DNA of 64,000 nt, from IMG/VR virus record IMGVR_UViG_3300037502_002729, positions 43,343 to 107,342 of that record; one strand, 5' to 3'. The translations under genes were made by a program, and so were the position numbers. Positions 5,953 through 36,432 of the stretch are shown one piece after another (the first letter of the stretch is position 1; every line of letters begins with the position of its first letter). Under the pieces are notes generated by a model that saw nothing but the letters and a program-made list of their open reading frames with translations, had not been told where the DNA came from and searched no databases. The stretch comes from a virus.

Positions 5953-6357
5953 ATGGAAAAAGAAAAACTAAAAAAAATATTTGAATTCATTGAAGAGAAG
6001 GAAGGGCATAAATTTCCAATTATATGGAAATTAATTAATAATATCCCATTTACAAAAGAAGAATTAAATATTGAAGGTGATTTGGATTTATCATACACTA
6101 CTAAAATAACCTCTTTACCCCAAGGCTTGAGAATTGAAGGTGATTTTTATATTGATTATTCATATGTTGAACTACCAAAAGGATTAGAAGTTGGTGGTGA
6201 TGTGTATGTAACAGGCACATACTTGGAGGATTACACAAAGGAACAGGTAATGACAATGATTTATCCTGGTTTTATAAAAGGTGATTTAATTTATAATATG
6301 GGTGATTCTTATGAGAATGATGGGGATGAGGATGAAAATGATGATGGGTTTCTATAA
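5953..6357 (+). CDS. LRR-like repeat family paralog 1 (array 1; 2 modules, acidic tail)
   Basis: MEKEKLKKIFEF N-cap, ITSLPQGLRIEGD modules, PGFIKG C-cap. Confidence 0.85.
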   Translation: MEKEKLKKIFEFIEEKEGHKFPIIWKLINNIPFTKEELNIEGDLDLSYTTKITSLPQGLRIEGDFYIDYSYVELPKGLEVGGDVYVTGTYLEDYTKEQVMTMIYPGFIKGDLIYNMGDSYENDGDEDENDDGFL

Positions 6358-6369
6358 ATTAAAAATACA

Positions 6370-6747
6370 ATGAAAAAAGAACAATTAAAAAGAATATTTG
6401 AATTCATTGAAGAGAAGGAAGGGCATAATGTACCATTTTTATGGAAATTTAAAAATAATATACCATTAACAGAAAAAGATTTGAATGTTAATGGTGATTT
6501 GAATTTATCTGATTCAAAAATAAAATCATTACCAGAAGGTTTAAAAGTTGGTGGTGATTTGTATTTAGATGGTTCATATGTGGAATCATTACCAAAAGGA
6601 TTAGAGGTTTATGGAGATTTATATATAGCAGATACAGTCTTAGCCTCTAAATCTAATGATGATTTAATAGTAATGATAAAACCTGGATTTATAAAAGGAG
6701 AAATAATAAATAATGAAGAAGAATATGATGAAGGATATGATGATTGA
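6370..6747 (+). CDS. LRR-like repeat family paralog 2 (array 1; 2 modules, acidic tail)
   Basis: Same caps, LPEGLKVGGDL modules. Confidence 0.85.
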   Translation: MKKEQLKRIFEFIEEKEGHNVPFLWKFKNNIPLTEKDLNVNGDLNLSDSKIKSLPEGLKVGGDLYLDGSYVESLPKGLEVYGDLYIADTVLASKSNDDLIVMIKPGFIKGEIINNEEEYDEGYDD

Positions 6748-6764
6748 TTTAAATTAAAAATAAA

Positions 6765-7175
6765 ATGGAAAAAGAACAATTAAAAAGAATATTTGAATTC
6801 CTTGAAGAGAAGGATAACAAGAGAGTACCCCTAACATGGAAATTAATCAATGATTTTGATTCAATAGATGATAAAGATTTATTTTATGATGATAATTTTG
6901 ATTTATATGGTGCAAGAGTAAAAAGATTACCAGACAATTTTACTGTTAAAGGATATCTTGATTTAAGATTGACAAAAATAAAAACTCTCCCAGATAATTT
7001 AACTGTTGATGGTGATTTATACCTAACGGCTTTAGAAATAGATTCAGTTCCAAAAAATCTAAAAGCACACTCAATGTTTGCAAAATACACAACTCTATCT
7101 GAAAAATATTCATACAAAGAAATTAAGGATATGATAAAAGAAAAGGGTGGTGAAGTTAAGTTTTTAACAATTTAA
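6765..7175 (+). CDS. LRR-like repeat family paralog 3 (array 1; divergent, 3 modules)
   Basis: MEKEQLKRIFEFLEEK N-cap, LPDNLTVDGDL modules. Confidence 0.85.
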   Translation: MEKEQLKRIFEFLEEKDNKRVPLTWKLINDFDSIDDKDLFYDDNFDLYGARVKRLPDNFTVKGYLDLRLTKIKTLPDNLTVDGDLYLTALEIDSVPKNLKAHSMFAKYTTLSEKYSYKEIKDMIKEKGGEVKFLTI

Positions 7176-7200
7176 TTACCTATATTTATAGAAAAAAAAT

Positions 7201-8013
7201 ATGAACAAAGAATTATTAAAAGAAGTGTTATCAATTCCATCATATAGTGGCAGGGAACTAAAATTAGTTAATTACATATGTGAATTTCTAAAAAAGAATA
7301 ATATACCATATGAGGTAGATGAGATGCTCAACATATATTGCACAAAGGGTGAAACAGAAACCTATCCTTGTGTTGTAGCACACACAGATACAGTCCACAA
7401 CAACACTTATATAGATGTTAGAACTGAACTAAGGGAAAATTCAAAAGGTGTCTTAAAAGAGGCTTATAAGGGTTATAATAAGATTGGGCAACCAACTGGA
7501 GTTGGGGGTGATGATAAAGCTGGTGTTTTTGCCTGTTTGACTTTATTGACAGAATTACCAGTTTTAAAGGCTGCTTTTTTTGTATCAGAAGAAATTGGGT
7601 GCATTGGTTCATTGGCAGCAGATCCAGAATTTTTCAAAAATGTTGGCTATGCCATACAGTTTGATGCTCCATTTGATTGGATGGTGACTGAAATTTCATC
7701 TGGTGTTCCTTTATTTAATAGGGATAGTGAGTTCTTCAATAAGATTAATAGTGTATTAGTAGAGAATATAGCCCCCAAGTATGGTTCACATCCTTATACA
7801 GATGTATATGCTTTAAAGAAGTTATTTGATTTTAGTTGTCTTAACATATCTATTGGGTATTATGATTATCATACACCAGATGAGTATGTTGTTTTAGAAG
7901 ATGTGGAGAATGGAATTAAAATAGGAAGGGAAATGATTGCAAGTTTAGGTTATAAAAAATATGAAAAGAAACATATACCAGTTATAAGGCCTTTTTTAAG
8001 GGAAAAGGGATAA
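7201..8013 (+). CDS. M20/M28 family zinc peptidase
   Basis: AHTDTV, GGDDKAG, SEEIG, QFD and YHT metal-binding motifs. Confidence 0.85.
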   Translation: MNKELLKEVLSIPSYSGRELKLVNYICEFLKKNNIPYEVDEMLNIYCTKGETETYPCVVAHTDTVHNNTYIDVRTELRENSKGVLKEAYKGYNKIGQPTGVGGDDKAGVFACLTLLTELPVLKAAFFVSEEIGCIGSLAADPEFFKNVGYAIQFDAPFDWMVTEISSGVPLFNRDSEFFNKINSVLVENIAPKYGSHPYTDVYALKKLFDFSCLNISIGYYDYHTPDEYVVLEDVENGIKIGREMIASLGYKKYEKKHIPVIRPFLREKG

Positions 8014-8018: not shown

Positions 8019-8040
8019 AAGGGGGTCAATTGACCCCCTT
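8019..8040. terminator. Perfect 22-bp palindrome at the junction of convergent genes
   Basis: AAGGGGGTCAATTGACCCCCTT, overlapping the Clp ATPase stop codon. Confidence 0.6.
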
Positions 8041-10038
8041 TTTAATTATAACATTTTCATCTTCAACAACCAAATTGTAAGGTTCATTTTCTTTAATGAA
8101 GCCATTTAAAACCTCATCAGATATTAAATCCTCAATCTTATCTTGGATTGCTCTCTTAATTGGCCTTGCACCATAAGTTTCATCAAATCCAACTTTGCTA
8201 ATTAAATCAATAATAGATGAATCAAAGGAAACAATGTAATTAGATTCTGTTAATCTTGTAATTAGTTTGTTAAGTTCAATTTCAGTTATCTTTTTAACAT
8301 TCTCATCATTCAATGTATTGAATACAATGGTATCATCAATACGGTTCAAGAATTCAGGTGAAAAGAACTTTTTCAATTCTTTCATTAGCATTTCTTTTTT
8401 AGCAACTTCATTGCCATATTTGGATGATGTGAAACTAATTCCAGTTCCAAAGTCTTGGAATTTTTTAATACCCAAGTTTGTTGTTAAAATGATGATTGTA
8501 TTTTTGAAATTAATAGTTTTACCTAAACTATCTGTTAGATGACCTTCATCCAATATCTGCAATAACAAATTAAAAACATCCTTGTGGGCTTTTTCAATCT
8601 CATCAAATAAGATAATTGAATATGGGTTATTCTTAACTTTTTCAGTTAGTTGACCACCTTCATCATGACCAACATAGCCTGGAGGTGAACCTATTAATCT
8701 TGATATGGTGTGTTTTTCTTGGTATTCACTCATATCAACCCTAATCAATGATTTCTCATTTCCAAATAATTGTTTGGCTAATTGCTTTGCTAAATGTGTT
8801 TTACCAACTCCTGTGGATCCTAAGAATATGAAACTACCTACTGGTCTATTTGGGTCTTTAATGTTAAGCCTATTTCTTTTAATAGACCTTGTAATAGATT
8901 CAACAGCAGCATCTTGACCAATAAGGTTTTCTTTAATTTTCTTATCTAAATTTATTAATTTTTGTTTTTCATCTATGTTCATTTGTTCTAGTGGAATATT
9001 TGTCATAATAGAAACCACAGAATAAACATCCTCAATATCAATCTTTCTCTTATTCTTTAAATTATTTTCTTCAAACTTTTTTGTTTCAGAATCAAGTTTT
9101 GTCAATAACTTCAATTCTTTATCTCTAATTTCAGCAGCCAATTCATATTCTTGGTTGATAACAACTCTTGTTTTTTCTTTCTTCAAATCATTAATCTTTT
9201 CTTTTAATATTTGAATTGATTCTGGTATCTTGACATCAACTTGGAGTTTTGCACCAACTTCATCAATAATATCAAAAGCCTTATCAGGGAATGCTCTATC
9301 ATTAATATATCTATCAGCCATCTTAACACATAATTCTATAACATCATCACTATATGATGCCTTATGGAAGGATTCATATTTGTCAATAGATTGTTTAACA
9401 ATTTTTATTGTTTCACTTATTGAAGGTTGTTCAAGTTTGATTTTTTGAAATCTTCTTGCTAATGCACCATCTTTTTCTATTGATTTTTTGAATTCATCAA
9501 ATGTGGTTGCACCAATACATTGAATTTCCCCAGATGCCAATGCTGGTTTAAATATGTTTGCACCATCCATAGCATTAGATGAATTACCAGATCCAATTAA
9601 TGTGTGTATTTCATCAATGAATATAATAACATTTGGGTTTGCAATTAACTCATCAAGAATTACCTTCATCCTTTCCTCAAACTGACCCCTATATTTGGTA
9701 CCAGCAACAACAGATGTTAAATCTAAATTTACAATTCTTTTGTTTAGTAGATTTTGAGGTCCTTCACCTTTTGAAATCATTAAGGCAACGCCCTCAATCA
9801 AGTTTGTTTTACCACAACCAGCATCACCAAGAATTAATGGATTGTTTTTCTTGCGTCTTGATAAGACTTGAGCCAATCTCTTAACTTCTTTTTCCCTACC
9901 AATTGACATATCTAGTTTCCCCATTTCAGCCAATTTGGTTAAATCTCTACTAAAATTGTCCAATACTGGAGTTTTTGAACCAGAGGTGTTTTTCTTACCT
10001 CTTGTTGTTTTTTCATCATCAAAATAGTCAACATTCAT
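8026..10038 (-). CDS. clpC: ClpC-like Hsp100 ATPase (two AAA+ modules, UVR middle domain, no Clp-N domain)
   Basis: GDAGCGKT, FIDEIH, GEIQCIGATT, YELAAEIRDKE, GSTGVGKT, RLIGSPPGYVG, FDEIEKAH, GARPIKR. Confidence 0.9.
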   Translation of the reverse strand: MNVDYFDDEKTTRGKKNTSGSKTPVLDNFSRDLTKLAEMGKLDMSIGREKEVKRLAQVLSRRKKNNPLILGDAGCGKTNLIEGVALMISKGEGPQNLLNKRIVNLDLTSVVAGTKYRGQFEERMKVILDELIANPNVIIFIDEIHTLIGSGNSSNAMDGANIFKPALASGEIQCIGATTFDEFKKSIEKDGALARRFQKIKLEQPSISETIKIVKQSIDKYESFHKASYSDDVIELCVKMADRYINDRAFPDKAFDIIDEVGAKLQVDVKIPESIQILKEKINDLKKEKTRVVINQEYELAAEIRDKELKLLTKLDSETKKFEENNLKNKRKIDIEDVYSVVSIMTNIPLEQMNIDEKQKLINLDKKIKENLIGQDAAVESITRSIKRNRLNIKDPNRPVGSFIFLGSTGVGKTHLAKQLAKQLFGNEKSLIRVDMSEYQEKHTISRLIGSPPGYVGHDEGGQLTEKVKNNPYSIILFDEIEKAHKDVFNLLLQILDEGHLTDSLGKTINFKNTIIILTTNLGIKKFQDFGTGISFTSSKYGNEVAKKEMLMKELKKFFSPEFLNRIDDTIVFNTLNDENVKKITEIELNKLITRLTESNYIVSFDSSIIDLISKVGFDETYGARPIKRAIQDKIEDLISDEVLNGFIKENEPYNLVVEDENVIIKKGVN

Positions 10039-18144: not shown

Positions 18145-18155
18145 ATTAAAATATT

Positions 18156-21276: not shown

Positions 21277-21978
21277 ATGAAAGATTTAAGAATTCTTGAA
21301 GCCAATGAAATAGGGCATGGTATTCTAATTGAAATGGATGCTGGGTGGGTTAATCCAAAAGATGAGTTGAACCTTGATTTAATAAGAGAAAATAAGAAAT
21401 TAGATTATAGCAAACCTTTTGAGTTTTATGCTGTTTTGCAAAAACATGATGTTCCAAATAGGAATGGCAGAACATATCCTGAAAAGATATTAAAGAGGGA
21501 AGCAGAAAGATATAAAAAGATTATTGAAAAAGGTTTATCAACATCAGAATTAAACCACCCAGAATCATCCCTTATTGACTTGGATAGGGTTTCCCATTTA
21601 ATTACAGATGTTTGGTGGGATAGCAATATCCTAATGGGGAAGTTATTGTTATTGACCTCTCCTGCCTTCCATGAGAGGGGCATAGTTTCAACCAAAGGAG
21701 ATATTGCAGCAAACCTAATGAGGCAAGGAGTAAGCCTTGGAATTAGTTCTAGGGGGGTTGGATCATTAAAGAAAGTTGGGGAGAAAAATGAGGTTCAAGA
21801 TGACTTTGAACTTATTTGTTTTGATTTGGTTTCATCACCATCAACGCCAGGGGCATATCTATTCTCAAACAAGGAAGATAGACATAAGTATGATGAAAAA
21901 TTGGAAGAGGAAAAGAAAATTGAACCAGTTAGTAATGTATTAAAATTAATGTCTAAACTTGATAGTTATTTAAAATAA
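21277..21978 (+). CDS. Prohead core protease (T4 gp21-like)
   Basis: NRNGRTYP, ELNHP, VSH.I, GISSRGVGSL, FDLVSSPSTPGAY. Confidence 0.93.
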   Translation: MKDLRILEANEIGHGILIEMDAGWVNPKDELNLDLIRENKKLDYSKPFEFYAVLQKHDVPNRNGRTYPEKILKREAERYKKIIEKGLSTSELNHPESSLIDLDRVSHLITDVWWDSNILMGKLLLLTSPAFHERGIVSTKGDIAANLMRQGVSLGISSRGVGSLKKVGEKNEVQDDFELICFDLVSSPSTPGAYLFSNKEDRHKYDEKLEEEKKIEPVSNVLKLMSKLDSYLK

Positions 21979-21991: not shown

Positions 21992-22771
21992 ATGCAAATA
22001 GGACAATTAAAAAGAATAATTGATTTCTTAGAAAATAAAGAAGGAAAAACACCTAAAGACAAAGGTAATTTAAGATGGAAAATGGTATTTAATGAACCAT
22101 TTACAAAAAAAGAATTAAATATTAAAGATGATTTGTATTTAAATTTTTCAAATATAAGGTCATTACCAGAAGGATTTAAAGTTTGGGGTGATATAAATTT
22201 GGCTAAATCCCATATAGAATCATTACCAGAAGGATTGAAAGTTGGGGGTAGTTTGCGTTTGGGTTATACAAATATTGCCTCACTCCCAAAAGGTTTGAAA
22301 GTTGGGGGTGATTTGGAATTGCTTGAAACAAACATAACTTCACTCCCAGAAGATTTGAAATTTGGTGGTAATTTGGATTTATCAGGCTCTAAAATAATGT
22401 CATTACCAGATAATTTATATATTAGGGGTAATTTAGGTTTAGTTAGATGTGAAAATTTAACTTCATTACCAAATGGATTAAAAGTTGCTGGTAATTTGAA
22501 ATTAACCTTTGCAAAAATAAATTCATTACCATATGATTTACAAGTTGGTAATTATTTGGATTTATCATATACTAACATAACCTCATTACCACAAGGCTTG
22601 AAAGTTGGAGGTAGATTCAATGTGTCAAATACAAATATTGAATCCTTACCAAAAGGATTGAAAGTTGGTGAAAATTTACTTATTTACAGGTCAAATTTGA
22701 AAAAATATACTGATGAAGAATTAAGAGAAATGGTTAAACCAGGTTTTATAAAAGGAGAAATATTTAGATAA
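21992..22771 (+). CDS. LRR-like repeat family paralog 4 (array 2; 9 modules)
   Basis: 20-aa modules between conserved caps. Confidence 0.9.
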   Translation: MQIGQLKRIIDFLENKEGKTPKDKGNLRWKMVFNEPFTKKELNIKDDLYLNFSNIRSLPEGFKVWGDINLAKSHIESLPEGLKVGGSLRLGYTNIASLPKGLKVGGDLELLETNITSLPEDLKFGGNLDLSGSKIMSLPDNLYIRGNLGLVRCENLTSLPNGLKVAGNLKLTFAKINSLPYDLQVGNYLDLSYTNITSLPQGLKVGGRFNVSNTNIESLPKGLKVGENLLIYRSNLKKYTDEELREMVKPGFIKGEIFR

Positions 22772-22824: not shown

Positions 22825-23415
22825 ATGGAAAAAGAAACACTAAAAAGAATATTTCAATTCCTTGAAGAAAAGGAAGAACATAGTGCACCATTATTATGGA
22901 AACATAAAAATAATATGCAAATAACAAAAGAAGAGTTGAATTTTAAAGGTGACTTACATTTAGAAAATTCACCAATAACCTCCTTGCCAGATGGGTTGAA
23001 AGTTGAGGGTGATTTGATGTTAACCTTTTCAAAAATAGCCTCATTACCAGATGATTTGCAAGTTGGGGGTGATTTAAATATAATTGGTTGTGAAGCCATA
23101 ACCTCATTACCAAAAGGATTAAAAGTTGGCAAAGGCATACAATTATATGCAAAAAGAATAGTTTCCATTGGGGAAGGATTATTTGTTAATGGAGATTTAA
23201 ATTTATTTAATAGTCAAATAAAATCATTACCCCAAGGTGTTAAAATTGTGGGGGAGTTAGTTTTATCCTTTACAAAAATAGAAACATTACCAAAAGGTTT
23301 GATAGTTAAAGGTGGTTTGGAGATTTCTGGATCACCATTAGAAAAATATTCAAATAGACAATTAAGAAAAATGGTTGAACCTGGATTTATAAATGGTCCA
23401 ATAGTTAGAGATTAG
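22825..23415 (+). CDS. LRR-like repeat family paralog 5 (array 2; 6 modules)
   Basis: Same cap-module-cap architecture. Confidence 0.9.
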   Translation: MEKETLKRIFQFLEEKEEHSAPLLWKHKNNMQITKEELNFKGDLHLENSPITSLPDGLKVEGDLMLTFSKIASLPDDLQVGGDLNIIGCEAITSLPKGLKVGKGIQLYAKRIVSIGEGLFVNGDLNLFNSQIKSLPQGVKIVGELVLSFTKIETLPKGLIVKGGLEISGSPLEKYSNRQLRKMVEPGFINGPIVRD

Positions 23416-23418: not shown

Positions 23419-23892
23419 ATGGAAAAAGAGAAGTTAAAAAGAATATTTGAGTTCCTTGAAGATAAGGAAAATCTAAACCCCCCATTCTTGTGGAAATGGA
23501 AAAATAATATACCATTAATAGAAGAAGATTCAAATGTTAAAGGTGATTTGAATTTAGCATTTTCAAAAATAAGATTTTTACCAGAAGGTTTGAAAGTTGC
23601 TGGTGATTTGGATTTGCAAGATTCATATGTGAAATCATTACCAAAAGGATTGGAAGTTGGTGGTGTTTTGAATTTAATAGGTACTTATATGACAACATTA
23701 CCAGAAGGATTGAAAGTTGGGGGTAGTTTGAATATAGCACATTCAACTATATTATCACTACCAAAAGGATTGGAAGTTGGAGGTGATTTATATATTAATG
23801 GCACAAAATTAACAAAATATACAAAAAACCAATTAAGAGAAATGGTTAAACCTGGATTTATAAAAGGAAAAATATATACAGGATATGAATAA
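23419..23892 (+). CDS. LRR-like repeat family paralog 6 (array 2; 4 modules)
   Basis: Same architecture. Confidence 0.9.
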   Translation: MEKEKLKRIFEFLEDKENLNPPFLWKWKNNIPLIEEDSNVKGDLNLAFSKIRFLPEGLKVAGDLDLQDSYVKSLPKGLEVGGVLNLIGTYMTTLPEGLKVGGSLNIAHSTILSLPKGLEVGGDLYINGTKLTKYTKNQLREMVKPGFIKGKIYTGYE

Positions 23893-24544
23893 AGAATCTC
23901 TAAAAAGGATATTTGATTTCCTTGAAGCCCAAGAGAATAAAACACCCAATTCCAAAGGAAACCTTAGATGGAAATTAATTTTCAATGAACCATTAACAGA
24001 AGAAGAATTGACTGTTGATGGTGATTTGAATTTAAATAATACACCCTTAACCTCATTACCAAAAGGATTAAAAGTTAGGGGTTATTTGAGTTTATCAAAC
24101 ACAAAAATAACCTCATTACCAGAAGATTTGAAAGTTGTTGGTAGTCTATATTTGGATCATAGCTTTATAAAATCATTACCAAAGGGATTAAAATTTGGGG
24201 GTGATTTTCATTTAGCACATTCTAAAATAACCTCATTACCAGAAGGATTGAAAGTTAATCATAGCTTGTATTTAAATGATTGTGAAGATTTAATCTCACT
24301 ACCAAAAGGATTAAAAGTTGGTGGTTGGTTGAAATTACCAAATACAAAGATAACCTCATTACCAGAAGACTTGGAGGTTGGTGGATCTTTGAATTTACGT
24401 TTTTGCACAGAATTAACTTCATTACCAAAAGGATTGAAAGTTGGTGGTGATTTGTATATTCGTGGAGCGTATTTATCAAAATATACAGATGAAGAATTAA
24501 GAGAAATGATTAAACCTGGATTTATAAAAGGAGAAATATATTGA
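23885..24544 (+). CDS. LRR-like repeat family paralog 7 (array 2; 7 modules)
   Basis: Same architecture; shares the KTP..KGNLRWK N-cap type with paralog 4. Confidence 0.9.
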   Translation: MNKESLKRIFDFLEAQENKTPNSKGNLRWKLIFNEPLTEEELTVDGDLNLNNTPLTSLPKGLKVRGYLSLSNTKITSLPEDLKVVGSLYLDHSFIKSLPKGLKFGGDFHLAHSKITSLPEGLKVNHSLYLNDCEDLISLPKGLKVGGWLKLPNTKITSLPEDLEVGGSLNLRFCTELTSLPKGLKVGGDLYIRGAYLSKYTDEELREMIKPGFIKGEIY

Positions 24545-24546
24545 TA

Positions 24547-25011
24547 ATGGAAAAAGAGAAGTTAAAAAGAATATTTGAGTTTCTTGAAGAGAAGGGAGAA
24601 CATAGATTACCACTTAAATGGAAATTAATAAATAATATATCATTAATAGAAGATGATTTAAATGTTAAAGGTGATTTAGACTTTTCATATTTAGATATAG
24701 CCTCATTACCAGAAGGATTGAAAGTTGTAGGTGATTTATCTTTAAGAGGTTCAAAAATAATCTCACTACCAGAAGGATTAGAAGTTGGTGGTGATTTGAT
24801 GTTATATAAATCAGCAATTGAATCATTGCCAAAAGATTTGATAGTTGGGGGTGGTTTGAGTGTAGCATATTCAAGTATATTCTCACTACCAAAAGGATTG
24901 GAAGTTGGAGGTGATTTATATATTCATGGAACAGATTTAACAAAATATACAAAACGACAATTAAGAGAAATGATAAAACCAGGTTTTATAAAAGGTAGAA
25001 TATATGACTAA
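24547..25011 (+). CDS. LRR-like repeat family paralog 8 (array 2; 4 modules)
   Basis: Same architecture; C-terminal part is near-identical to paralog 6. Confidence 0.9.
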   Translation: MEKEKLKRIFEFLEEKGEHRLPLKWKLINNISLIEDDLNVKGDLDFSYLDIASLPEGLKVVGDLSLRGSKIISLPEGLEVGGDLMLYKSAIESLPKDLIVGGGLSVAYSSIFSLPKGLEVGGDLYIHGTDLTKYTKRQLREMIKPGFIKGRIYD

Positions 25012-25325: not shown

Positions 25326-25357
25326 AAACCCCTAGCATTTTATGTTGGGGGTTTTTT
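25326..25357 (+). terminator. Intrinsic terminator
   Basis: AAACCCCTAGCAT-ttt-ATGTTGGGGGTTTTTT. Confidence 0.75.
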
Positions 25358-28912: not shown

Positions 28913-28995
28913 AATATCTTTTCCCATAGAGGTGAATATAGTTTATATATTATAGAAAAAAACATAATAGTTTTATATTTATAAATAAAAAAATT

Positions 28996-30732: not shown

Positions 30733-31155
30733 TCACTCTTTCTTCCACTTTCCACCTAATTGCTTATAACGTTTTGCTGCTGCACCATTGCAATATGCAC
30801 TAGGACATACCTTATATCTTGATTTTGCCCAACTTAAACATTGACTCCATAATTTTGGATTTTTGGGTTTGTTCTTTTTGGCTTTAGCTTCTGTTAAATT
30901 TTGGTCATCATTCTCATTGAATTCATTCATCATAAAATCAAATACTTGATCCATATTTTCTTTTGCAACACTAATGTGGTCATCAGCCCAATCATGCCCA
31001 TTTTTTATTAACTCATTCACCTCATCTGGTTGCAGTTCAAGCAATAATTCACATTGTCTTTTTATTTGTTTTAAATTACCAAAGAACATATAGTTTTCAG
31101 TTGCTTGTTCCTTTATGGCAGTTTCAATAATTCTTTTAATTCTTGGATTAATCAT
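30733..31155 (-). CDS. Hypothetical protein with C-terminal PSAY..G...YK..GG.W domain (DUF5872-like)
   Basis: KPKNPKLW...PSAYCNGAAAKRYKQLGGKW. Confidence 0.6.
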   Translation of the reverse strand: MINPRIKRIIETAIKEQATENYMFFGNLKQIKRQCELLLELQPDEVNELIKNGHDWADDHISVAKENMDQVFDFMMNEFNENDDQNLTEAKAKKNKPKNPKLWSQCLSWAKSRYKVCPSAYCNGAAAKRYKQLGGKWKKE

Positions 31156-31311
31156 ATTAATTTTTATTTATAAATATCATTAAGGTCTATTTTGATTAAG
31201 GCTTCCATATTTTGATTTTAAGATACTTTTTGTTTTAGCCTATTACTATGTCATATTTATTAAAATCTATTGTCTTGGTTAAATTGTATGTGGTTAAATG
31301 GGATTTAATGA

Positions 31312-31851
31312 CTATATCTTAATTATTCCTTTTATATATCCAGGTTTAACCATTTCTCTTAATTCATCATTAGAAAAATTGCCTAAACTATCCTCAGTAC
31401 TTATATTTAAGTAGCGATTAACTATTAACCCTTTTGGTAACTTATTTATTGGTGTATTCATTATTCCTAACCAACCATCAATGACTAGCCCTTCTGGTAG
31501 TGAAGTTATTTTTGTATTATGTAAATACAAAGAATTACCAATTTTAATATCATGTGGTATGTTTTTTATGTTGGAGTGGGATAAATACAAACTACCACCA
31601 ACTTTCAACCCTTTTGGCAATTCTTCTATTTTTGAAAATCTAGTCTGCATATCACCTTTAACTTCCAAATTATCTGGCAATGATTTTAATGTTGAATCTG
31701 TTAAATCCAAATCACCATTAACAACTAAATCATCTTTTGTTAGGGGTTCATTAAATTTTAATTTCCAAATAAAGTTATCTCTATCTTTATGTTTTTTCTT
31801 TTCTTTCTTCTCAAAAAAATCAAATATTTTTCTTATTGTTTCTTTTTCCAT
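31312..31851 (-). CDS. LRR-like repeat family paralog 18 (array 3; 5 modules)
   Basis: Same architecture; first ~100 codons are near-identical to 33054-33650. Confidence 0.9.
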   Translation of the reverse strand: MEKETIRKIFDFFEKKEKKKHKDRDNFIWKLKFNEPLTKDDLVVNGDLDLTDSTLKSLPDNLEVKGDMQTRFSKIEELPKGLKVGGSLYLSHSNIKNIPHDIKIGNSLYLHNTKITSLPEGLVIDGWLGIMNTPINKLPKGLIVNRYLNISTEDSLGNFSNDELREMVKPGYIKGIIKI

Positions 31852-32471
31852 TATCTAAATATTTTACCTTCAAATTTTCCCCCATTTAAATTTTTATTAC
31901 TTCTTATTTCTTCATCTGTATATTTTTTGGCAAGGGGGGTGTTTCTTATGCCTATATCTCGTCTAACATATAAATTATTTGGAAAATCTTCTATTTGTGT
32001 AGAAATAATACCAAAATTACCTCCAACGTATAAATTATCTGGAAGTTCTTTTATTTTTACACAATCAGATAAATTTAAACTACCCCCAACATATAATTCA
32101 CTTGGGAGTTTTATTAATTCTTCACAAGAATCCAAATCTAAATAATCATCCACATATATTTTATCTGGGAGTTTTGTTATATTTAAACCTGCTAAATCTG
32201 CCCAACCTTCAACACGTAAATCACCTGAAAGTTCTTTTAAATTTTTACAATCTTTCACCATCAAATAACCCTTAACATTAAATTTATTTGGTAATTTTTT
32301 TATAGGCATTTCGTATAAATACAAATTATCATTATGTGTAAATTGAACATCATCAGGATAATTTTCTAGGTCATACATTAGGTTAAGTTTTCTTAACTTA
32401 ATATAGGAGGGGACTTTATTTTCTTTCTTTTTAATAAAATCAAGTATCTTTTTTATTGTTTTTATTTCCAT
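31851..32471 (-). CDS. LRR-like repeat family paralog 17 (array 3; divergent, Cys-containing modules)
   Basis: MEIKTIKKILDF N-cap; LPSELYVGGSLNLSDC modules. Confidence 0.85.
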   Translation of the reverse strand: MEIKTIKKILDFIKKKENKVPSYIKLRKLNLMYDLENYPDDVQFTHNDNLYLYEMPIKKLPNKFNVKGYLMVKDCKNLKELSGDLRVEGWADLAGLNITKLPDKIYVDDYLDLDSCEELIKLPSELYVGGSLNLSDCVKIKELPDNLYVGGNFGIISTQIEDFPNNLYVRRDIGIRNTPLAKKYTDEEIRSNKNLNGGKFEGKIFR

Positions 32472-32475
32472 CTTC

Positions 32476-33054
32476 TTAATATATGCTCCCATTTATGTAT
32501 CCAGGATGAATCATTTTTGCAATTTCATCATCATCAAGTTTATATATGGATGTTCCATAAACATGTAAATCTCCACCAACTATTAAGCCTTTTGGTAAGG
32601 ACTTTAAGTTTTTACAATTTCTTAAATTTAAATCACCACCAACTTCTAATCCTTCTGGCAATGATTCTATTTTTGAATGTTTTAAAACTAAATTATAATC
32701 AACTTTCAAACCTTTTGGTAATTTAGTTATTTCTGTACCACCTAAATCCAAACCTTCAACTTCCAAATCCTCTGGTAATGATTTTATTCTTGAACTAGCT
32801 AAAAATAAACCCCTAACTTTCAATCCTTTTGGCAATGAAGTTATGCTTGATTCATAAAGGTATAAATTACCATCAACATTTAACCCTTCTGGTAATGAGG
32901 TAATTTCTATTCTTTCTAAATCCAAATCACCTTTAACATTTAATTCTTCTTTGGTTAATGGGATATTATTTAATAATTTCCATTTAAATGGTGCATTATG
33001 CCCTTCCTTCTCTTCAAGGAACTCAAATATTCTTTTTAATTGTTCTTTTTCCAT
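32476..33054 (-). CDS. LRR-like repeat family paralog 16 (array 3; 6 modules, two shortened)
   Basis: Same architecture. Confidence 0.9.
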   Translation of the reverse strand: MEKEQLKRIFEFLEEKEGHNAPFKWKLLNNIPLTKEELNVKGDLDLERIEITSLPEGLNVDGNLYLYESSITSLPKGLKVRGLFLASSRIKSLPEDLEVEGLDLGGTEITKLPKGLKVDYNLVLKHSKIESLPEGLEVGGDLNLRNCKNLKSLPKGLIVGGDLHVYGTSIYKLDDDEIAKMIHPGYINGSIY

Positions 33055-33650
33055 TATCTTATTATGTCTCCTTTTATAAATCCAGGTTTAATCATTTCTC
33101 TTAATTCATTATTTGTGTATTCTAATAATGCTGTATTTTTAATAATCAACTCACCTTTAACTTCTAACCCTTTTGGTAATGAAGTTATTTTTGAACGCTG
33201 TAAATGCAAAATATCACCAACTTTCAACCCTTCTGGTAATGATTCTATATCTGCAAAAACTAAACTTAAACTACCACCAACTTTCAATCCTTTTGGTAGT
33301 GAAGTTATTTTTGTATTGTGTAAATACAAAGAATTACCAATTTTAATATCATCTGGTATGTTTTTTATCCTAGAGTAGGATAAATCCAAAGTACCACCAA
33401 CTTTCAAGCCTTTTGGTAATTCTTCTATTCTTGAAAATCTAGTAAGCATACCACCTTTAACTTCCAAATTATCTGGCAATGATTTTAATGTTGAATCTGT
33501 TAAATCCAAATCACCATTAACAACTAAATCTTCTTTGGTTAGGGGTTCATTAAACTTTAATTTCCAAATAAAGTTATCTCTATCTTTATGTTTTTTCCCT
33601 TCCTTTTCTTCAAGGAATTCAAATATTCTTTTTAATTGTTCTTTTTCCAT
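33054..33650 (-). CDS. LRR-like repeat family paralog 15 (array 3; 6 modules)
   Basis: Same architecture. Confidence 0.9.
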   Translation of the reverse strand: MEKEQLKRIFEFLEEKEGKKHKDRDNFIWKLKFNEPLTKEDLVVNGDLDLTDSTLKSLPDNLEVKGGMLTRFSRIEELPKGLKVGGTLDLSYSRIKNIPDDIKIGNSLYLHNTKITSLPKGLKVGGSLSLVFADIESLPEGLKVGDILHLQRSKITSLPKGLEVKGELIIKNTALLEYTNNELREMIKPGFIKGDIIR

Positions 33651-34057
33651 TATTTAAATATTTTTCCTTTTATAAAGCCAGGTTTAATCATTTCCTTTAT
33701 TTCATCCTTTGAGTAATGTATTAATGGAGTTCTATTAATAATAATATCCCCCCCAACTTTCAATCCTTTTGGTAAATCTTTGATGAATTTACAACTATCC
33801 AAAAACAAATCACCCTTAACTTCCAATCCATCTGGCAATGAGGATATAGTTGAAAATAGCAAATCCAAATCACCCCCAACTTTCAACCCTTCTGGTAATG
33901 AGTTTATTTCAATAGACCTTAAATCTAAATCACCTTTAACATTTAAATCTTCTTTGGTTAATGGGATATTATTAAATAATTTCCATTTAAATGGTGCATT
34001 ATGCCCTTCCTTTTCTTCAAGAAACTCAAATATTCTTTTTAATGCTTCTTTTTCCAT
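33650..34057 (-). CDS. LRR-like repeat family paralog 14 (array 3; 3 modules)
   Basis: Same architecture. Confidence 0.9.
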   Translation of the reverse strand: MEKEALKRIFEFLEEKEGHNAPFKWKLFNNIPLTKEDLNVKGDLDLRSIEINSLPEGLKVGGDLDLLFSTISSLPDGLEVKGDLFLDSCKFIKDLPKGLKVGGDIIINRTPLIHYSKDEIKEMIKPGFIKGKIFK

Positions 34058-34521
34058 TATCTAAATATTATTCCTTTTATAAACCCAGGTTCAATCATTT
34101 CCCTTAATTCTTCATCTGTGTATTCTAATAATGCTGTCTTTTTAATATATAAATTAGCACCAACTTCCAATCCTTTTGGTAAGGAGGTTATTTTTGTATT
34201 TATTAAATCCAACCAAAACCTAACTTTCAAGCCTTTTGGTAATGAGGTTATTTTTGTATTATATAAATTCAAATAACCACCAACTTTCAAATCTTCTGGT
34301 AATGAGGTTATATTTGTATCTCTTAAACTCAAAAACCCACTAACTTTCAATCCTTCTGGTAATGATGTTATATTTGTTTTATTTAAAAATAAACTACCTT
34401 TAATATTTAAATCACCTTCTGTTAATGGTATATTATTAAATAATTTCCATTTAAATGGTGCTCTATTCTCTCCTTTCTCTTCAAGGAATTCAAATATCCT
34501 TTTTAGTTTTTCTTTTTCCAT
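34057..34521 (-). CDS. LRR-like repeat family paralog 13 (array 3; 4 modules)
   Basis: Same architecture. Confidence 0.9.
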   Translation of the reverse strand: MEKEKLKRIFEFLEEKGENRAPFKWKLFNNIPLTEGDLNIKGSLFLNKTNITSLPEGLKVSGFLSLRDTNITSLPEDLKVGGYLNLYNTKITSLPKGLKVRFWLDLINTKITSLPKGLEVGANLYIKKTALLEYTDEELREMIEPGFIKGIIFR

Positions 34522-34919
34522 TATCTTATTATGTCTCCTTTTATAAATCCAGGCTTTATCATATCTCTTAATTCTTCATTAGTATAATCTTCTAATGGAG
34601 TATTTCTAATAAATAAACTACGCCCAACTTTCAAACCTTTTGGTAATAAGGTTATTTTTGTATTATATAGACTTAAATCATCACCAACTTTCAATCCTTC
34701 TGGCAGTGAAGTTATACTTGAGTTGTCTAAATACAAAGTACCCTTAACTTCCAATCCATTTGGCAATGATGTTATATTTGATAATTGCAAATCACCATTA
34801 ATTTCCAAATCTTCTTTTCTTAATGGCATATTAGTTTTCAACTTCCACACAAGTGGTTGGTTAAGATTTTCCTTTGTTTTAAGGAACTCAAATATTCTTT
34901 TTATTTTTTCTTTTTCCAT
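34521..34919 (-). CDS. LRR-like repeat family paralog 12 (array 3; 3 modules)
   Basis: Same architecture. Confidence 0.9.
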   Translation of the reverse strand: MEKEKIKRIFEFLKTKENLNQPLVWKLKTNMPLRKEDLEINGDLQLSNITSLPNGLEVKGTLYLDNSSITSLPEGLKVGDDLSLYNTKITLLPKGLKVGRSLFIRNTPLEDYTNEELRDMIKPGFIKGDIIR

Positions 34920-35623
34920 TATCTAAATATTTCTCCTTCTATATATCCAGGTTTTACCATTTCTCTTAATTGGTCATCTGTGTATTTTCTTAATATGCTT
35001 TTTTCTATATATAATTTTCCATAAACTTTCAAACCTTTTGGCAATGAGGTTATATTTGTATCTCTTAAATACAAACCTCCACCAACTTCCAATCCATTTG
35101 GCAATGAGGTTATATTTGTATGTGATAAAGTCAAATAACCACCAACTTTCAATCCTTCTGGCAATGAGGTTATTTTTGAACTGGTTAAACCCAAATTACC
35201 ATTAACTTTCAATCTTTCTGGCAATGAGGTTATTTTTGTATTCTCTATATGCAAAGAACCCCCAACTTTCAAACCTTTTGGTAGTGAGTTTATATCCGCA
35301 TATGATAAATTCAAAGAACCACCAACTTGTAAATCATCTGGTAATGAGATTATTTTTGAAAAGGTTAACATCAAATCACCATCAACTTTTAAACCTTCTG
35401 GTAATGAGGTTATGTTTGAATTAGTTAAATATAAATCACCACCAACTTTCAAACCTTCTGGCAATGAGGTTATATTTGCGTGTCTTAAACTCAAATCACC
35501 TTTAACATTTAAATCTTCTTTTGCTATTGGCATAGCCAATTTAATCTTAACTGGTAATGGTATAATGTGTTCTCCTTTCTCTTCAAGAAACTCAAATATT
35601 CTTTTTAGTTTTTCTTTTTCCAT
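34919..35623 (-). CDS. LRR-like repeat family paralog 11 (array 3; 8 modules)
   Basis: Exact 60-bp periodicity is visible at 35041-35500. Confidence 0.9.
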   Translation of the reverse strand: MEKEKLKRIFEFLEEKGEHIIPLPVKIKLAMPIAKEDLNVKGDLSLRHANITSLPEGLKVGGDLYLTNSNITSLPEGLKVDGDLMLTFSKIISLPDDLQVGGSLNLSYADINSLPKGLKVGGSLHIENTKITSLPERLKVNGNLGLTSSKITSLPEGLKVGGYLTLSHTNITSLPNGLEVGGGLYLRDTNITSLPKGLKVYGKLYIEKSILRKYTDDQLREMVKPGYIEGEIFR

Positions 35624-36027
35624 TATCTATATATTTCTCCTTTTATAAATCCAGGTTTAATCATTTCCCTTAATTCTTCAGCTGAATATTTTATTAATGC
35701 ACTATCATCAATATATAAATTTCTTCCAACTTCCAATCCTTTTGGTAAAAACTTTATATCTGTTTCAATTAAATCCAAATGACCACCAACTTTTAGTCCT
35801 TCTGGTAAATACTCTATAAATGTATAGGCTAAATCAAGCCAACCACTAACTTGCAATCCTTCTGGTAAGGTTTCAACTCCTGTATTACTTAAATCCAAAT
35901 CACCTTTAACATTTAAATCACCTTCTGTTAATGGTATATCATTTTTATACTTCCATAAGAATGGTGCATTATGTTCTTCCTTCTCTTCAAGGAATTCAAA
36001 TATTCTTTTTAGTGCTTCTTTTTCCAT
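35623..36027 (-). CDS. LRR-like repeat family paralog 10 (array 3; 3 modules)
   Basis: Same architecture. Confidence 0.9.
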   Translation of the reverse strand: MEKEALKRIFEFLEEKEEHNAPFLWKYKNDIPLTEGDLNVKGDLDLSNTGVETLPEGLQVSGWLDLAYTFIEYLPEGLKVGGHLDLIETDIKFLPKGLEVGRNLYIDDSALIKYSAEELREMIKPGFIKGEIYR

Positions 36028-36030
36028 TAT

Positions 36031-36432
36031 CTAATATATATTTCCATTTATATAACCAGGTTTTATCATTTCTCTTAATTCATCATTTAAAAGTTTTGTT
36101 AATTCTGTTCCTCCAAGAAATAAATCACCCTCTACTTTTAAACCTTTTGGTAGTGAGGTTATTTTTGTATTAGCCAAAGACAAATCACCACCAACTTTCA
36201 AGTCTTTTGGTAATGAGGTTATATTTGTATTTCTTAAAATCAAAAAACCACTAACTTTCAACCCTTCTGGTAATGAAGTTATATTTGATTGAAACAAATT
36301 CAAATTGCCTTTAACATTTAAATCATCTTCTGTTAATGGTATATTATTTTTAAATTTCCATAAAAATGGTGTTCTATGCTCACCCTCCTCTTCAAGGAAC
36401 TCAAATATTCTTTTTAATGTTTCTTTTTCCAT
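36031..36432 (-). CDS. LRR-like repeat family paralog 9 (array 3; 3 modules)
   Basis: Same architecture; TAATG-coupled to the upstream 501-aa gene. Confidence 0.9.
   Translation of the reverse strand: MEKETLKRIFEFLEEEGEHRTPFLWKFKNNIPLTEDDLNVKGNLNLFQSNITSLPEGLKVSGFLILRNTNITSLPKDLKVGGDLSLANTKITSLPKGLKVEGDLFLGGTELTKLLNDELREMIKPGYINGNIY

What the first reader, a model, noticed from the sequence alone, without database searches (positions are those of the whole stretch)
5953..36432. Repertoire of 18 capped, variable LRR-like proteins in three tandem arrays (VLR-like binding-protein library in a jumbo phage)
Seen: 18 paralogs in arrays of 3 (5953-7175 +), 5 (21992-25011 +) and 10 (31312-36432 -), about 9 kb in total. 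Each has an N-cap (MEKExLKRIFEFLEEKE...WK...PLT.EDL.V.GDL), then 2-9 copies of a mostly 20-aa/60-bp module (I.SLP[EK]GL[KE]VxGxLxLxx[ST]x), then a C-cap (KYT.EELREMIKPGFIKG.I). That is about 84 modules by hand count. The SLPxGLxV framework is nearly fixed, while the x positions in xGxLxLxx differ in almost every module (DLYLTNS, DLMLTFS, SLHIENT, YLTLSHT, WLDLAYT). No catalytic domain, signal peptide or TM segment is present. Known: in LRR solenoids the xLxLxx strand forms the ligand-binding face, and cap + variable LRRs + cap is the design of lamprey VLRs. Inference: these are soluble binders with many different specificities, for example inhibitors or decoys of host anti-phage defence proteins.
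Basis: partly seen in the sequence, partly recalled or inferred. Interest (0 to 1): 0.92.

Follow-up and report, generated by a model that had tools for sequence, protein, structure and literature searches.

The report
Phage multigene family of capped LRR binders
A roughly 300-kb T4-like jumbo phage spends about a tenth of this contig on 23 small leucine-rich-repeat proteins that share a rigid scaffold but carry different predicted binding faces, so it looks like an inherited set of binders whose targets are unknown.

Summary
They are true LRR solenoids: AF2 pLDDT is 93.5 and 91.3, and the best solved match is Vibrio FlrP at E 3e-32. The repeat is 20 aa. Ten scaffold positions are nearly fixed. 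Six positions on and after the xLxLx strand carry 3.0-3.7 bits.

The family is accessory. Most phages with 80%-identical capsid genes have no arrays at the same sites. A 270-kb close relative has about 50 match places, and its arrays differ by gene gain, loss, reordering and replacement. The same phage from three samples has identical arrays, and neither genome has a reverse transcriptase. The repertoire is therefore inherited, not hypermutated.

Positive selection is not shown. In 45 ortholog pairs dN/dS at the variable sites is 0.57 (0.37-0.85), against 0.20 for the scaffold and 0.13 for core genes.

All arrays examined follow the promoter-like motif that precedes the head genes, which suggests late expression.

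The anti-defence role is untested. The VLR comparison is an analogy, not membership. First-stage notes flagged similar LRR pairs in another genome.

The parts
5953..6357 (+). LRR paralog, 134 aa, 2 LP modules, acidic tail (pI 4.2); first gene of array 1
   Evidence: promoter-like TATATTTAT 28 nt upstream
6370..6747 (+). LRR paralog, 125 aa, 2 modules, acidic tail
6765..7175 (+). LRR paralog, 136 aa, 3 modules, divergent C-cap; 95.6% orthologue in G001
21277..21978 (+). T4 gp21-type prohead serine protease (Peptidase_S77); heads the operon that holds array 2
   Evidence: 13-nt gap to the first LRR gene with no promoter motif in it
21992..22771 (+). LRR paralog, 259 aa, 9 modules
22825..23415 (+). 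LRR paralog, 196 aa, 6 modules; orthologues in L020 and L074 (76%) and G001 (95%)
23419..23892 (+). LRR paralog, 157 aa, 4 modules; no orthologue at this site in G001
23885..24544 (+). LRR paralog, 219 aa, 7 modules (three are the 21-aa Cys-containing type); no orthologue at this site in G001
24547..25011 (+). LRR paralog, 154 aa, 4 modules (ATG start; the ORF lister gave TTG at 24541); 99% orthologue in G001
25326..25354 (+). Terminator-like hairpin (13 pairs plus a T run) that closes the protease-LRR transcription unit
31312..31851 (-). LRR paralog, 179 aa, 5 modules; its first 362 nt are 91% identical to the gene at 33054-33650 (mosaic)
31851..32492 (-). Divergent LRR paralog, 213 aa (probable start at 32471), 21-aa Cys-type modules, atypical caps
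32476..33054 (-). LRR paralog, 192 aa, 6 modules including two 19-aa ones
33054..33650 (-). LRR paralog, 198 aa, 6 modules
33650..34057 (-). LRR paralog, 135 aa, 3 modules; not in the part of the G001 array held here
34057..34521 (-). LRR paralog, 154 aa, 4 modules; folded by AF2 (pLDDT 93.5)
34521..34919 (-). LRR paralog, 132 aa, 3 modules; its orthologue sits at a different place in the G001 array
34919..35623 (-). LRR paralog, 234 aa, 8 modules; folded by AF2 (pLDDT 91.3); DUF5649 hit at 28.5 bits
35623..36027 (-). LRR paralog, 134 aa, 3 modules, acidic (pI 4.6)
36031..36432 (-). LRR paralog, 133 aa, 3 modules; first gene of array 3
36432..37937 (-). Conserved 501-aa gene of unknown function that heads the operon with array 3. 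Promoter-like ATATTTAT lies 19 nt upstream. Its stop overlaps the first LRR start by 1 nt. In relatives without arrays it directly abuts the orthologue of 30733-31155.
5927..5934 (+). Promoter-like motif (core TATTTATA within TGTATATTTATAAT) ahead of array 1; the same motif precedes the terminase, protease, scaffold-like and other genes

Best explanation
The 18 genes (23 in the contig) encode small, soluble, capped LRR solenoids. Each is a rigid 20-residue-per-turn scaffold (LPxGLxVxGxLxLxxTxIxS) between a two-helix N-cap and a helix-plus-hairpin C-cap. The outward-facing residues of the xLxLx strand and the loop and strand after it differ from module to module and from paralog to paralog.

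I read the family as an inherited, accessory repertoire of binding proteins. Each paralog probably recognises its own target inside the infected cell. The targets are most likely variable host proteins or proteins of rival mobile elements, and defence proteins are one candidate class.

The repertoire changes by gene gain, loss, replacement and reordering, and by changes in module number, at a few plastic sites of an otherwise conserved T4-like jumbo genome. It does not change by hypermutation.

Shown: the fold, the pattern of variability, accessory status, turnover, stability within populations, and operon context. Inferred: that the variable face binds ligands, that the ligands differ between paralogs, and that the proteins act in the cytoplasm. 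Unknown: the targets.
For: Fold:
- A profile of the family finds solved LRRs: FlrP 8z5u at E 3e-32, SlrP and SspH1 at about 1e-9, and VLRs at 1e-6.
- AF2 gives pLDDT 93.5 for the 154-aa paralog and 91.3 for the 234-aa one. There is one strand per turn at module positions 10-13 and a short one at positions 5-6.
- Foldseek's top hits are FlrP, the SspH1 LRR (solved with its target PKN1), Leptospira LRRs and VLRs.

Variability:
- Positions 9, 11, 13, 14, 16 and 18 carry 3.0-3.7 bits; scaffold positions carry 1.6 bits or less.
- There are 411 distinct six-residue signatures among 459 distinct modules.
- Strand positions 9 and 11 are rich in D, N, Y, S, W and H.
- Exposed positions 2 and 5 are held to K/E.

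Specificity:
- The variable sites are weakly conserved within orthologues: omega 0.57, CI 0.37-0.85. They are saturated between paralogs. This fits specificity determinants.

Accessory status and turnover:
- Five long syntenic loci with about 80% identical MCP have no arrays.
- The close relative G001 has about 50 match places, and its arrays differ in membership and order.

Intact, phage-specific family:
- No stop codons occur in any copy.
- Overall omega is 0.55.
- The caps occur only together with LRRs in 3259 ORFs of the related phage loci.
- The capped form is almost absent from 185,579 cellular genomes.
- Atlas clusters are 85-100% viral, apart from one longer cluster at 50%.

Use as a targeting module:
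- The same repeat type is fused elsewhere to NEL E3 ligase, DnaJ, PcfJ, Thg1, DUF6745 and ToxN+SpoVG domains.
Against: - No ligand is known and no binding was tested.
- Variable x positions between repeats are a general property of any LRR protein. Alone they do not prove many specificities.
- Positive selection is not demonstrated. Omega at the variable sites is below 1 in orthologue pairs. The value of 1.44 between modules comes from NG86 in a 28% GC genome with strong codon bias and saturation.
- All arrays examined are preceded by, or co-transcribed from, the promoter-like motif that also precedes the terminase, prohead protease and scaffold-like genes. That points to late expression, which is unusual for proteins that must disarm the host early.
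- Overall omega of 0.55 also fits relaxed constraint.
Confidence: 0.5

Rival explanations
1. Packaged or ejected head proteins, like T4 internal proteins. The LRR proteins would be made late, loaded into the prohead, perhaps trimmed by the gp21-type protease at an I/L-x-E site in the N-terminal helix, and injected with the DNA to act at once on host proteins.
For: - Array 2 sits directly behind the Peptidase_S77 prohead protease, in one transcription unit, and before the scaffold-like and MCP genes.
- All arrays follow the same promoter-like motif as the head genes.
- The conserved N-terminal helix contains I-F-E and L-E-E, which fit the T4 gp21 (L/I)xE rule (the rule is from my own knowledge; the sequence is).
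- T-even internal-protein loci are also hyperplastic (own knowledge).
- This reading would reconcile late expression with an early-acting role.
Against: - The N-terminal helix is predicted as a structured cap (pLDDT 74-81).
- That helix occurs only on LRR proteins, not on other candidate head proteins.
- In G001 other arrays lie in the replication and nucleotide-metabolism regions.
- Most relatives with the same head genes have no arrays.
- No proteomic data exist, because the nearest cultured phages share only 42-46% MCP identity.
Confidence: 0.15
2. Virion-surface adhesins or decoration proteins. The conserved caps would dock on the capsid, tail or fibres, and the variable faces would bind host-surface or environmental glycans or proteins, widening adsorption.
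For: - Late-type operon context next to head genes and probably baseplate genes.
- Goslar virion proteins with LRR/beta-helix domains have been proposed as host-recognition elements (bioRxiv 10.64898/2026.04.21.720040).
- FlrP shows that this LRR subtype can be a structural spacer in a large machine.
Against: - There is no separate anchor domain, and the proteins are only 125-259 aa.
- The N-cap is fast-evolving among orthologues (omega about 0.9), which is odd for a docking interface.
- Tens of different decorations would need a common site.
- Related phages with nearly identical capsid genes do without them.
Confidence: 0.1
3. Substrate adaptors for the phage's own proteolysis system. The variable LRR face would pick host proteins, and the conserved caps would dock on the phage ClpC-like AAA+ unfoldase or peptidase, in the way F-box-LRR or NEL-LRR proteins deliver targets.
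For: - Array 1 lies next to an M20/M42-like peptidase (7201-8013) and a ClpC/ClpB-type double AAA+ protein with a UVR motif (8026-10038). The same neighbourhood is kept in G001.
- A phage tmRNA lies 1 kb away.
- Conserved caps with variable faces suit a common-effector, variable-target design.
Against: - Only one of four arrays is adjacent to these genes.
- Adjacency alone is weak evidence.
- No ClpP-type peptidase was identified.
- No interaction was tested, because complex prediction was unreachable.
Confidence: 0.08
4. Largely neutral or selfish expansion. The 60-bp repeats and conserved cap-coding junctions would drive unequal recombination, so copies accumulate with little function.
For: - Overall omega is 0.55, against 0.13 in core genes.
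- There is frequent gain, loss and reordering.
- One clear mosaic pair exists.
- Module number is quantised in 20-aa steps.
Against: - All 23 copies, and the roughly 50 match places in G001, are open with no internal stops.
- Scaffold omega is 0.20, and the confidence interval for the variable sites excludes 1.
- Genes are translationally coupled (TAATG junctions).
- The family takes 11% of the contig, a heavy cost for a packaged genome.
Confidence: 0.07
5. An actively diversified library (DGR-like or other targeted hypermutation).
For: The variable positions are rich in D, N, Y, S and H, as in DGR targets.
Against: - No reverse transcriptase was found in G000 or in the 90%-complete G001.
- The same phage from three samples has identical arrays, with one non-synonymous SNP in about 82 kb compared.
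- Trp is common at position 9, and adenine-only mutagenesis of AAY codons cannot give Trp (inference).
Confidence: 0.01

Closest known systems
Vibrio FlrP (PDB 8z5u/8z5w/8z60), an LRR protein of the polar flagellar motor
   Same: It is the closest solved relative by sequence (E 3e-32) and by fold (Foldseek E 4.5e-4). It has the same 20-residue LPxGLxVxGxLxLxxTxIxx repeat and a small single-domain solenoid.
   Different: FlrP has a Sec signal peptide and is periplasmic. It is a single-copy structural spacer bound to the flagellar rod (bioRxiv 10.64898/2025.12.04.692373). It lacks the phage N-cap and C-cap, because the match covers only the repeats.
LRR domains of bacterial NEL E3-ligase effectors (SspH1, SlrP, IpaH) and YopM
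   Same: Short bacterial-type LRRs with an LP motif and a helical N-cap. The concave face binds the target, as in the SspH1-PKN1 structure among the top fold hits. Some long relatives of this repeat type carry a NEL domain.
   Different: The window proteins have no NEL or other effector domain. They are phage-encoded, cytoplasmic and much smaller, and they occur in tens of paralogs.
Lamprey and hagfish variable lymphocyte receptors (VLRs) and engineered repebodies
   Same: The design is cap, then variable LRR modules, then cap. Diversity is concentrated at the strand and adjacent positions, and module number varies. There are weak profile and fold matches.
   Different: VLRs have 24-residue LRRV modules and disulfide-knotted LRRNT/LRRCT caps. 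They are secreted or GPI-anchored and are assembled somatically from cassettes (own knowledge). Here the modules are 20 residues and the proteins have 0-3 Cys. There is no signal peptide. The genes are complete and inherited, and they are stable across samples.
Repeat-protein multigene families of giant eukaryotic viruses (LRR, ankyrin, MORN and F-box families of Mimiviridae, Pithoviridae, etc.)
   Same: A large viral genome carries tens of tandem paralogs of a binding-repeat scaffold of unknown target. BFVD fold hits include many 'leucine-rich repeat protein' entries from giant viruses.
   Different: Those viruses infect eukaryotes and their proteins belong to other LRR subtypes. This family belongs to tailed phages and has its own caps. 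I found no paper describing such an expansion in a phage.
T4 internal proteins (IPI, IPII, IPIII) and their hyperplastic locus
   Same: Small accessory proteins in a T4-like phage with a shared conserved N-terminus, in plastic loci. A gp21-type protease gene is adjacent to one array.
   Different: There is no sequence or fold relation. Packaging and cleavage were not shown. The shared N-terminus is predicted to be part of the fold.

Membership tests
Leucine-rich repeat (LRR) superfamily | Tandem 20-30-residue repeats with the LxxLxLxx(N/T/C)xL core | tested here: met
   The module xLxLxx(T/S)xI recurs with a 20-aa period (21 aa in the Cys-type modules). There are 109 LP anchors in 23 proteins.
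Leucine-rich repeat (LRR) superfamily | Solenoid fold with one parallel beta-strand per repeat forming a continuous sheet | tested here: met
   AF2 gives pLDDT 93.5 and 91.3, with a strand at module positions 10-13 in every turn. Foldseek's top hits are all LRR structures. These are predictions, not solved structures.
Leucine-rich repeat (LRR) superfamily | Significant sequence match to curated LRR models or to solved LRRs | tested here: met
   The profile against PDB gives FlrP at 3e-32, designed LRRs at 1e-31 and SlrP and SspH1 at about 1e-9. Pfam LRR_1, LRR_4 and LRR_14 hits stay below their gathering scores.
Pfam DUF5649 (PF18886) | Score above the gathering cut-off (25 bits) | tested here: inconclusive
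   One of six paralogs tested reaches 28.5 bits. Edno5_0047 reaches 24.2 bits. The other five paralogs have no hit.
NEL-type LRR E3 ligases (IpaH/SspH/SlrP) | C-terminal NEL catalytic domain | tested here: not met
   No NEL hit in the window proteins. NEL is present only in a distant 760-aa relative, P0139.
Variable lymphocyte receptors | Cysteine-knotted LRRNT and LRRCT caps and 24-residue LRRV modules | tested here: not met
   The proteins have 0-3 Cys. The caps are helical. The period is 20 aa.
Variable lymphocyte receptors | Somatic assembly of an incomplete germline gene from flanking cassettes | tested here: not met
   Every copy is a complete capped ORF. Arrays are identical in three samples of the same phage.
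Diversity-generating retroelement targets | Reverse transcriptase plus a template repeat; adenine-directed variation | tested here: not met
   PF00078 is absent from G000 and from the 90%-complete G001, and the control genomes were positive. No hypervariation between samples.
T4-type internal (capsid-targeted) proteins | N-terminal capsid-targeting sequence ending in (L/I)xE, cleaved by the gp21-type protease; protein present in virions | not testable with these tools
   The protease is present, and I-F-E and L-E-E motifs lie in helix 1. Cleavage and packaging need proteomics. The helix is found only on LRR proteins.
Known anti-defence protein families | Homology to a described anti-defence protein, or a demonstrated inhibition | not tested
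   Pfam and PHROGs give no named function. No anti-defence library was on hand (the PADLOC library holds defence models, not anti-defence ones). No paper was found linking a phage LRR to anti-defence.

The most novel reading that the evidence does not exclude
The phage carries an inherited arsenal of about 50 different binders on one LRR scaffold. Each would neutralise or redirect a different host immune or surface-maintenance protein, or a rival phage's protein. The arsenal would be delivered late or packaged into the capsid, and phage lineages would reshuffle it by swapping genes and modules. That would make it a viral counterpart of LRR-based immune receptor repertoires.
Probability: 0.2. 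Interest if true: 0.9.

Novelty: new variant of a known kind. Interest (0 to 1): 0.62.

Why it matters
If each paralog has its own target, this would be a clear case of a bacteriophage keeping a large inherited repertoire of binders on one scaffold. Here that repertoire takes 11% of the contig, and a near-complete relative has about 50 match places. It would point to a way of countering variable host defences, or of manipulating the host, that differs from the usual one-inhibitor-per-system pattern.

It would also supply hundreds of natural, small, cysteine-poor LRR binders with a well-defined variable face, which could serve as protein-engineering scaffolds. This work found 208 capped proteins and 411 distinct face signatures.

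Even without a known function, the family marks the plastic sites of an abundant, uncultured clade of T4-like jumbo phages. It is also a tractable system for studying how repeat-protein repertoires evolve by gene and module turnover rather than by point mutation.

Tried and rejected
- Complex prediction (two copies of the 154-aa paralog, meant to test head-to-tail or lattice assembly) was unreachable on six tries. No result.
I compared the same phage across three IMG/VR samples instead.
- A tree-based per-site dN/dS count needed ancestral sequences, which iqtree2 does not offer on this machine. I did not work around this. I used 45 disjoint orthologue pairs with a bootstrap instead.
- DNA mimicry was rejected. 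pI ranges from 4.2 to 9.3 and net charge from -17 to +7.
- DGR was rejected.
- A prophage or cellular origin for the capped family was rejected. Only 11 weak, repeat-only loci were found in 185,579 species genomes.
- The idea that the N-cap is a general capsid-targeting leader shared with non-LRR proteins has no support.
- PHROGs, Pfam and PDB sequence searches gave nothing for the conserved 501-aa and 500-aa genes upstream of array 3.
- No cultured close relative exists; the best MCP identity is 42-46%. No virion proteomics can therefore be borrowed.
- Literature searches for DUF5649, phage LRR paralogs, LRR anti-defence and LRR internal head proteins found nothing on this family.

Full report
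**Observation**

There are three on the plus strand at 5953-7175, five on the plus strand at 21992-25011 and ten on the minus strand at 31312-36432. All share three parts:
- an N-terminal region of the type MEKExLKRIFEFLEEKE...WK...PLT.EDL.V.GDL;
- 2-9 modules anchored on an LP dipeptide;
- a C-terminal region of the type KYTDEELREMIKPGFIKGxIxR.

Spacing between LP anchors is 20 residues in most cases. It is 21 where the module has the xxCxxLxSLP form, and 19 in two cases.

Two starts should be adjusted: 24547 (ATG) instead of 24541 (TTG), and probably 32471 instead of 32492.

The window is bases 43343-107342 of a 107,342-bp IMG/VR contig that CheckV estimates as 35% complete. A fourth array of five paralogs lies upstream at contig positions 14392-17084. 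The family therefore has 23 members here and covers 12,015 bp, 11.2% of the contig.

**What the proteins are**

Pfam gives only one hit above threshold, DUF5649 at 28.5 bits for one paralog, plus LRR hits below threshold. PHROGs gives only families of unknown function.

A profile of 55 four-repeat family members (A1) finds solved LRR proteins clearly:
- Vibrio FlrP (8z5u chain 0) at E 3.3e-32;
- designed consensus LRRs at about 1e-31;
- SlrP and SspH1 at about 1e-9;
- VLRs and repebodies at 1e-6 to 1e-3.

FlrP is a Sec-exported, 21.5-kDa LRR that binds the rod of the polar flagellar motor (bioRxiv 10.64898/2025.12.04.692373). It shares the repeat but not the caps.

AlphaFold2 models are confident. 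The 154-aa paralog scores pLDDT 93.5 and pTM 0.83. The 234-aa paralog scores pLDDT 91.3 and pTM 0.84. Each model has two N-terminal helices (residues 3-15 and 23-28). Each turn has a strand at module positions 10-13 and a short strand at positions 5-6. Two short C-terminal helices and a final hairpin close the fold.

Foldseek ranks FlrP first. The SspH1 LRR (solved with its target PKN1), Leptospira LRRs and VLRs follow. Among predicted viral structures, the best matches are uncharacterised 'Leucine-rich repeat' proteins of uncultured Caudovirales. These are therefore genuine LRR solenoids of the short bacterial type.

**Where the variability lies**

I numbered the module from the L of LP. Positions 0, 1, 3, 4, 6, 8, 10, 12, 15 and 17 (L, P, G, L, V, G, L, L, T/S, I) have 0.2-1.6 bits of entropy. 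Positions 9, 11, 13, 14, 16 and 18 have 3.0-3.7 bits (94 modules). The pattern is the same in 459 distinct modules from 208 capped homologues, which carry 411 distinct six-residue signatures.

Aligned to the canonical LxxLxLxxNxL core, these are positions 3, 5, 7, 8, 10 and 12. They are the outward-facing residues of the concave strand and the flank that follows it, which are the classical LRR ligand-contact positions (established LRR knowledge).

The other exposed positions (2 and 5) are restricted to K/E, often as E..K or K..E pairs. Variability is therefore one-sided and not simply a surface effect.

Positions 9 and 11 are rich in D, N, Y, S, W and H. Net charge ranges from -17 to +7, so a general DNA-mimic role is unlikely.

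**Genomic context**

The window encodes a T4-like head module:
- large terminase (16393-18144);
- portal (18156-20012);
- a Peptidase_S77 (gp21-type) prohead protease (21277-21978);
- a scaffold-like protein with acidic repeats (25433-27028);
- a 590-aa major capsid protein (27056-28828).

Array 2 starts 13 nt after the protease gene with no promoter-like motif in between. A strong hairpin terminator at 25326-25354 closes the unit.

Array 3 starts at the last base of a conserved 501-aa gene (36432-37937). Its genes are joined by 1-nt TAATG overlaps.

Array 1 has its own upstream motif. That motif, (T)ATATTTAT at 19-36 nt before the ATG, precedes about 32 of 119 ORFs in the contig. These include the terminase, protease, scaffold-like gene and other genes of the structural region. 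It also precedes the arrays I examined in a relative's replication and nucleotide-metabolism regions, whereas the DNA polymerase and helicase genes lack it.

I infer, but have not shown, that the arrays are expressed with the late genes.

**Relatives**

The capsid protein has more than 596 relatives at 75-83% identity in IMG/VR, so this is an abundant uncultured clade. The nearest cultured phages share only 42-46% identity; they are Flavobacterium and Microcystis myoviruses, and an uncultured huge phage record is at a similar distance.

In five long syntenic loci (L015, L025, L027, L035, L047) the protease orthologue is followed almost directly by the scaffold-like gene. The orthologue of 30733-31155 directly abuts that of 36432-37937. 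No LRR genes are present at either site. The arrays are therefore accessory insertions at plastic sites and not core structural genes.

Closer relatives do carry arrays at the same sites: L020 has 15 LRR genes and L074 has 4.

A 270-kb, 90%-complete relative (G001, IMGVR_UViG_3300036770_004143) has core proteins mostly 90-100% identical to the window's. It has about 50 LRR match places in at least six arrays. Its arrays differ from the window's as follows:
- At array 1, two window genes are replaced by one unrelated paralog.
- At array 2, two of five genes are missing and the first is a different paralog (47% identity).
- At array 3, two genes are missing from the part held here and one has moved.
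- The upstream array has seven genes instead of five, in another order.

By contrast, contigs of the same phage from three samples are nearly identical. There are 16 differences in about 82 kb, and one of them, an A/V change, lies in an LRR gene. No reverse transcriptase is present in G000 or G001. The repertoire is inherited and stable in the short term. It changes by gene turnover.

**Selection**

For 13 orthologue pairs between the window's phage and G001, pooled dN/dS is 0.56, against 0.13 for 14 flanking core genes.

For 45 disjoint close orthologue pairs drawn from all loci, using the pooled dS:

| Site class | dN/dS |
|---|---|
| Variable positions | 0.57 (bootstrap 95% CI 0.37-0.85) |
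| Scaffold | 0.20 (0.15-0.30) |
| N-cap | 0.90 |
| C-cap | 0.65 |

Between modules, NG86 gives 1.44 at the variable positions and 0.40 at the scaffold positions. With 28% GC, strong codon bias and saturation, I do not regard 1.44 as evidence for positive selection.

The fair statement is this. The variable positions evolve about three times faster than the scaffold. They are saturated between paralogs, yet they are under weak purifying selection within each orthologue. That is what specificity-determining residues look like. It is not proof of an arms race.

LRR orthologues also have a lower dS (0.06) than the terminase and portal genes (0.7-0.8) between the same two genomes. This shows that the genomes are mosaics.

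Within the window, one clear mosaic exists: the first 362 nt of 31312-31851 and 33054-33650 are 91% identical and the remainder has diverged. Otherwise the paralogs are 60-86% identical at the DNA level.

**Family range**

The capped form is essentially viral:
- 208 distinct proteins with both caps occur in the loci fetched. Their lengths are quantised in 20-aa steps.
- 1197 proteins match at E <= 1e-3 in the near-length search, none with a functional name (only 'hypothetical protein'), on contigs up to 324 kb.
- Atlas clusters are 85-100% viral, apart from one longer cluster at 50%.
- Only 11 weak loci were found in 185,579 species genomes. Ten of the 11 match the repeats only.

The repeat type itself is widespread: 8485 representative clusters match at E <= 1e-3. 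Elsewhere it is fused to NEL E3 ligase, DnaJ, PcfJ, Thg1, DUF6745 and ToxN+SpoVG domains. That pattern fits a general targeting module. A temperate Edwardsiella phage (Edno5) has one copy with other caps in its early region, between cI and exo/recT.

**Interpretation**

The functional part remains an inference.

I favour an accessory repertoire of intracellular binders with paralog-specific targets (0.5). The rivals are:
- packaged, T4-internal-protein-like delivery (0.15);
- virion adhesins (0.1);
- adaptors for the phage's ClpC-like AAA+ protein next to array 1 (0.08);
- near-neutral expansion (0.07);
- hypermutation (0.01).

The VLR comparison is a good description of the architecture. It fails every membership test I could apply.

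First-stage notes of this scan flagged the upstream array, the operon wiring and the mosaic pair in this genome. They also flagged LRR pairs with a shared leader in another genome. I checked the claims about this genome myself and did not examine the other genome.

**Limits**

- The host is not established. TAnnTTTG-like motifs, A-rich leaders and distant Flavobacterium-phage capsid similarity are only hints.

Noticed in passing
window 4492-4913 (-): Phage-encoded tmRNA (Rfam RF00023, 86.5 bits, full-length model match). ARAGORN predicts a 21-residue tag ending in AVVAA.
   Followed up: partly
window 8026-10038 (-) and 7201-8013 (+): A ClpC/ClpB-type double AAA+ protein (AAA, AAA_lid_9, UVR motif, AAA_2, ClpB_D2-small) lies next to an M20/M42-like peptidase, directly beside LRR array 1. 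The same neighbourhood is kept in the 270-kb relative. Together with the tmRNA, this suggests a phage-borne protein-quality-control or degradation module.
   Followed up: partly
window 25433-27028 (+), repeats at 25618-26217: The scaffold-like protein between the protease operon and the MCP contains long acidic 30-nt/10-aa repeats (EDEDEMEMDF type). Only about 260 of its 531 residues are conserved in relatives.
   Followed up: no
window-wide, e.g. 786-797, 28976-28987, 31165-31176: TATAAATA occurs 42 times against 19 expected. It often forms the palindrome TATTTATAAATA between divergent genes. (T)ATATTTAT lies 19-36 nt upstream of about 32 of 119 ORFs. A second motif, TAnnTTTG (like the Bacteroidota -7 box), precedes other genes such as 5056, 29318 and 30303.
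   Followed up: partly
window 16393-20012 versus L085: Between this phage and the 270-kb relative, terminase and portal have dS of 0.7-0.8. Neighbouring genes have dS of 0.03-0.17. This points to a mosaic genome with recent exchange of segments, including the LRR arrays (dS 0.06).
   Followed up: partly
L085 7509-7697 and L091 15792-16018: The few differences between contigs of the same phage from different samples are clustered: 9 SNPs in 190 bp at the start of the orthologue of 20799-21239, and 6 in 230 bp in and just after the orthologue of 11496-12239. Most are synonymous or intergenic. They look like small recombination patches.
   Followed up: no
window 27056-28828 (+): The major capsid protein is unusually long (590 aa). 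The best PHROG stretch covers only residues 298-567, so the N-terminal half is an unexplained extension.
   Followed up: no
window 2623-4430 (-): A probable lysis or cell-wall module: an M23 peptidase (388 aa) and a glucosaminidase-domain protein (201 aa).
   Followed up: no
P0187 (761 aa, metagenomic): A protein with a ToxN (type III toxin, Abi-like RNase) domain at the N-terminus, the same 20-aa LRR type in the middle and SpoVG at the C-terminus. It suggests that this LRR subtype also serves as a sensor or targeting part of conflict systems.
   Followed up: no
L085 9410-9997 (+): The G001 orthologue of 22825-23415 appears to start at GTG. It carries a different N-cap sequence on an otherwise 95%-identical body, which suggests that caps can be swapped by recombination.
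   Followed up: partly
L001 5944-6687 (Edwardsiella phage Edno5, Edno5_0047): A temperate phage has a single LRR of the same subtype, with seven nearly identical repeats and an unrelated 80-aa C-terminal domain. It lies in the early region between the cI repressor and exo/recT.
   Followed up: partly
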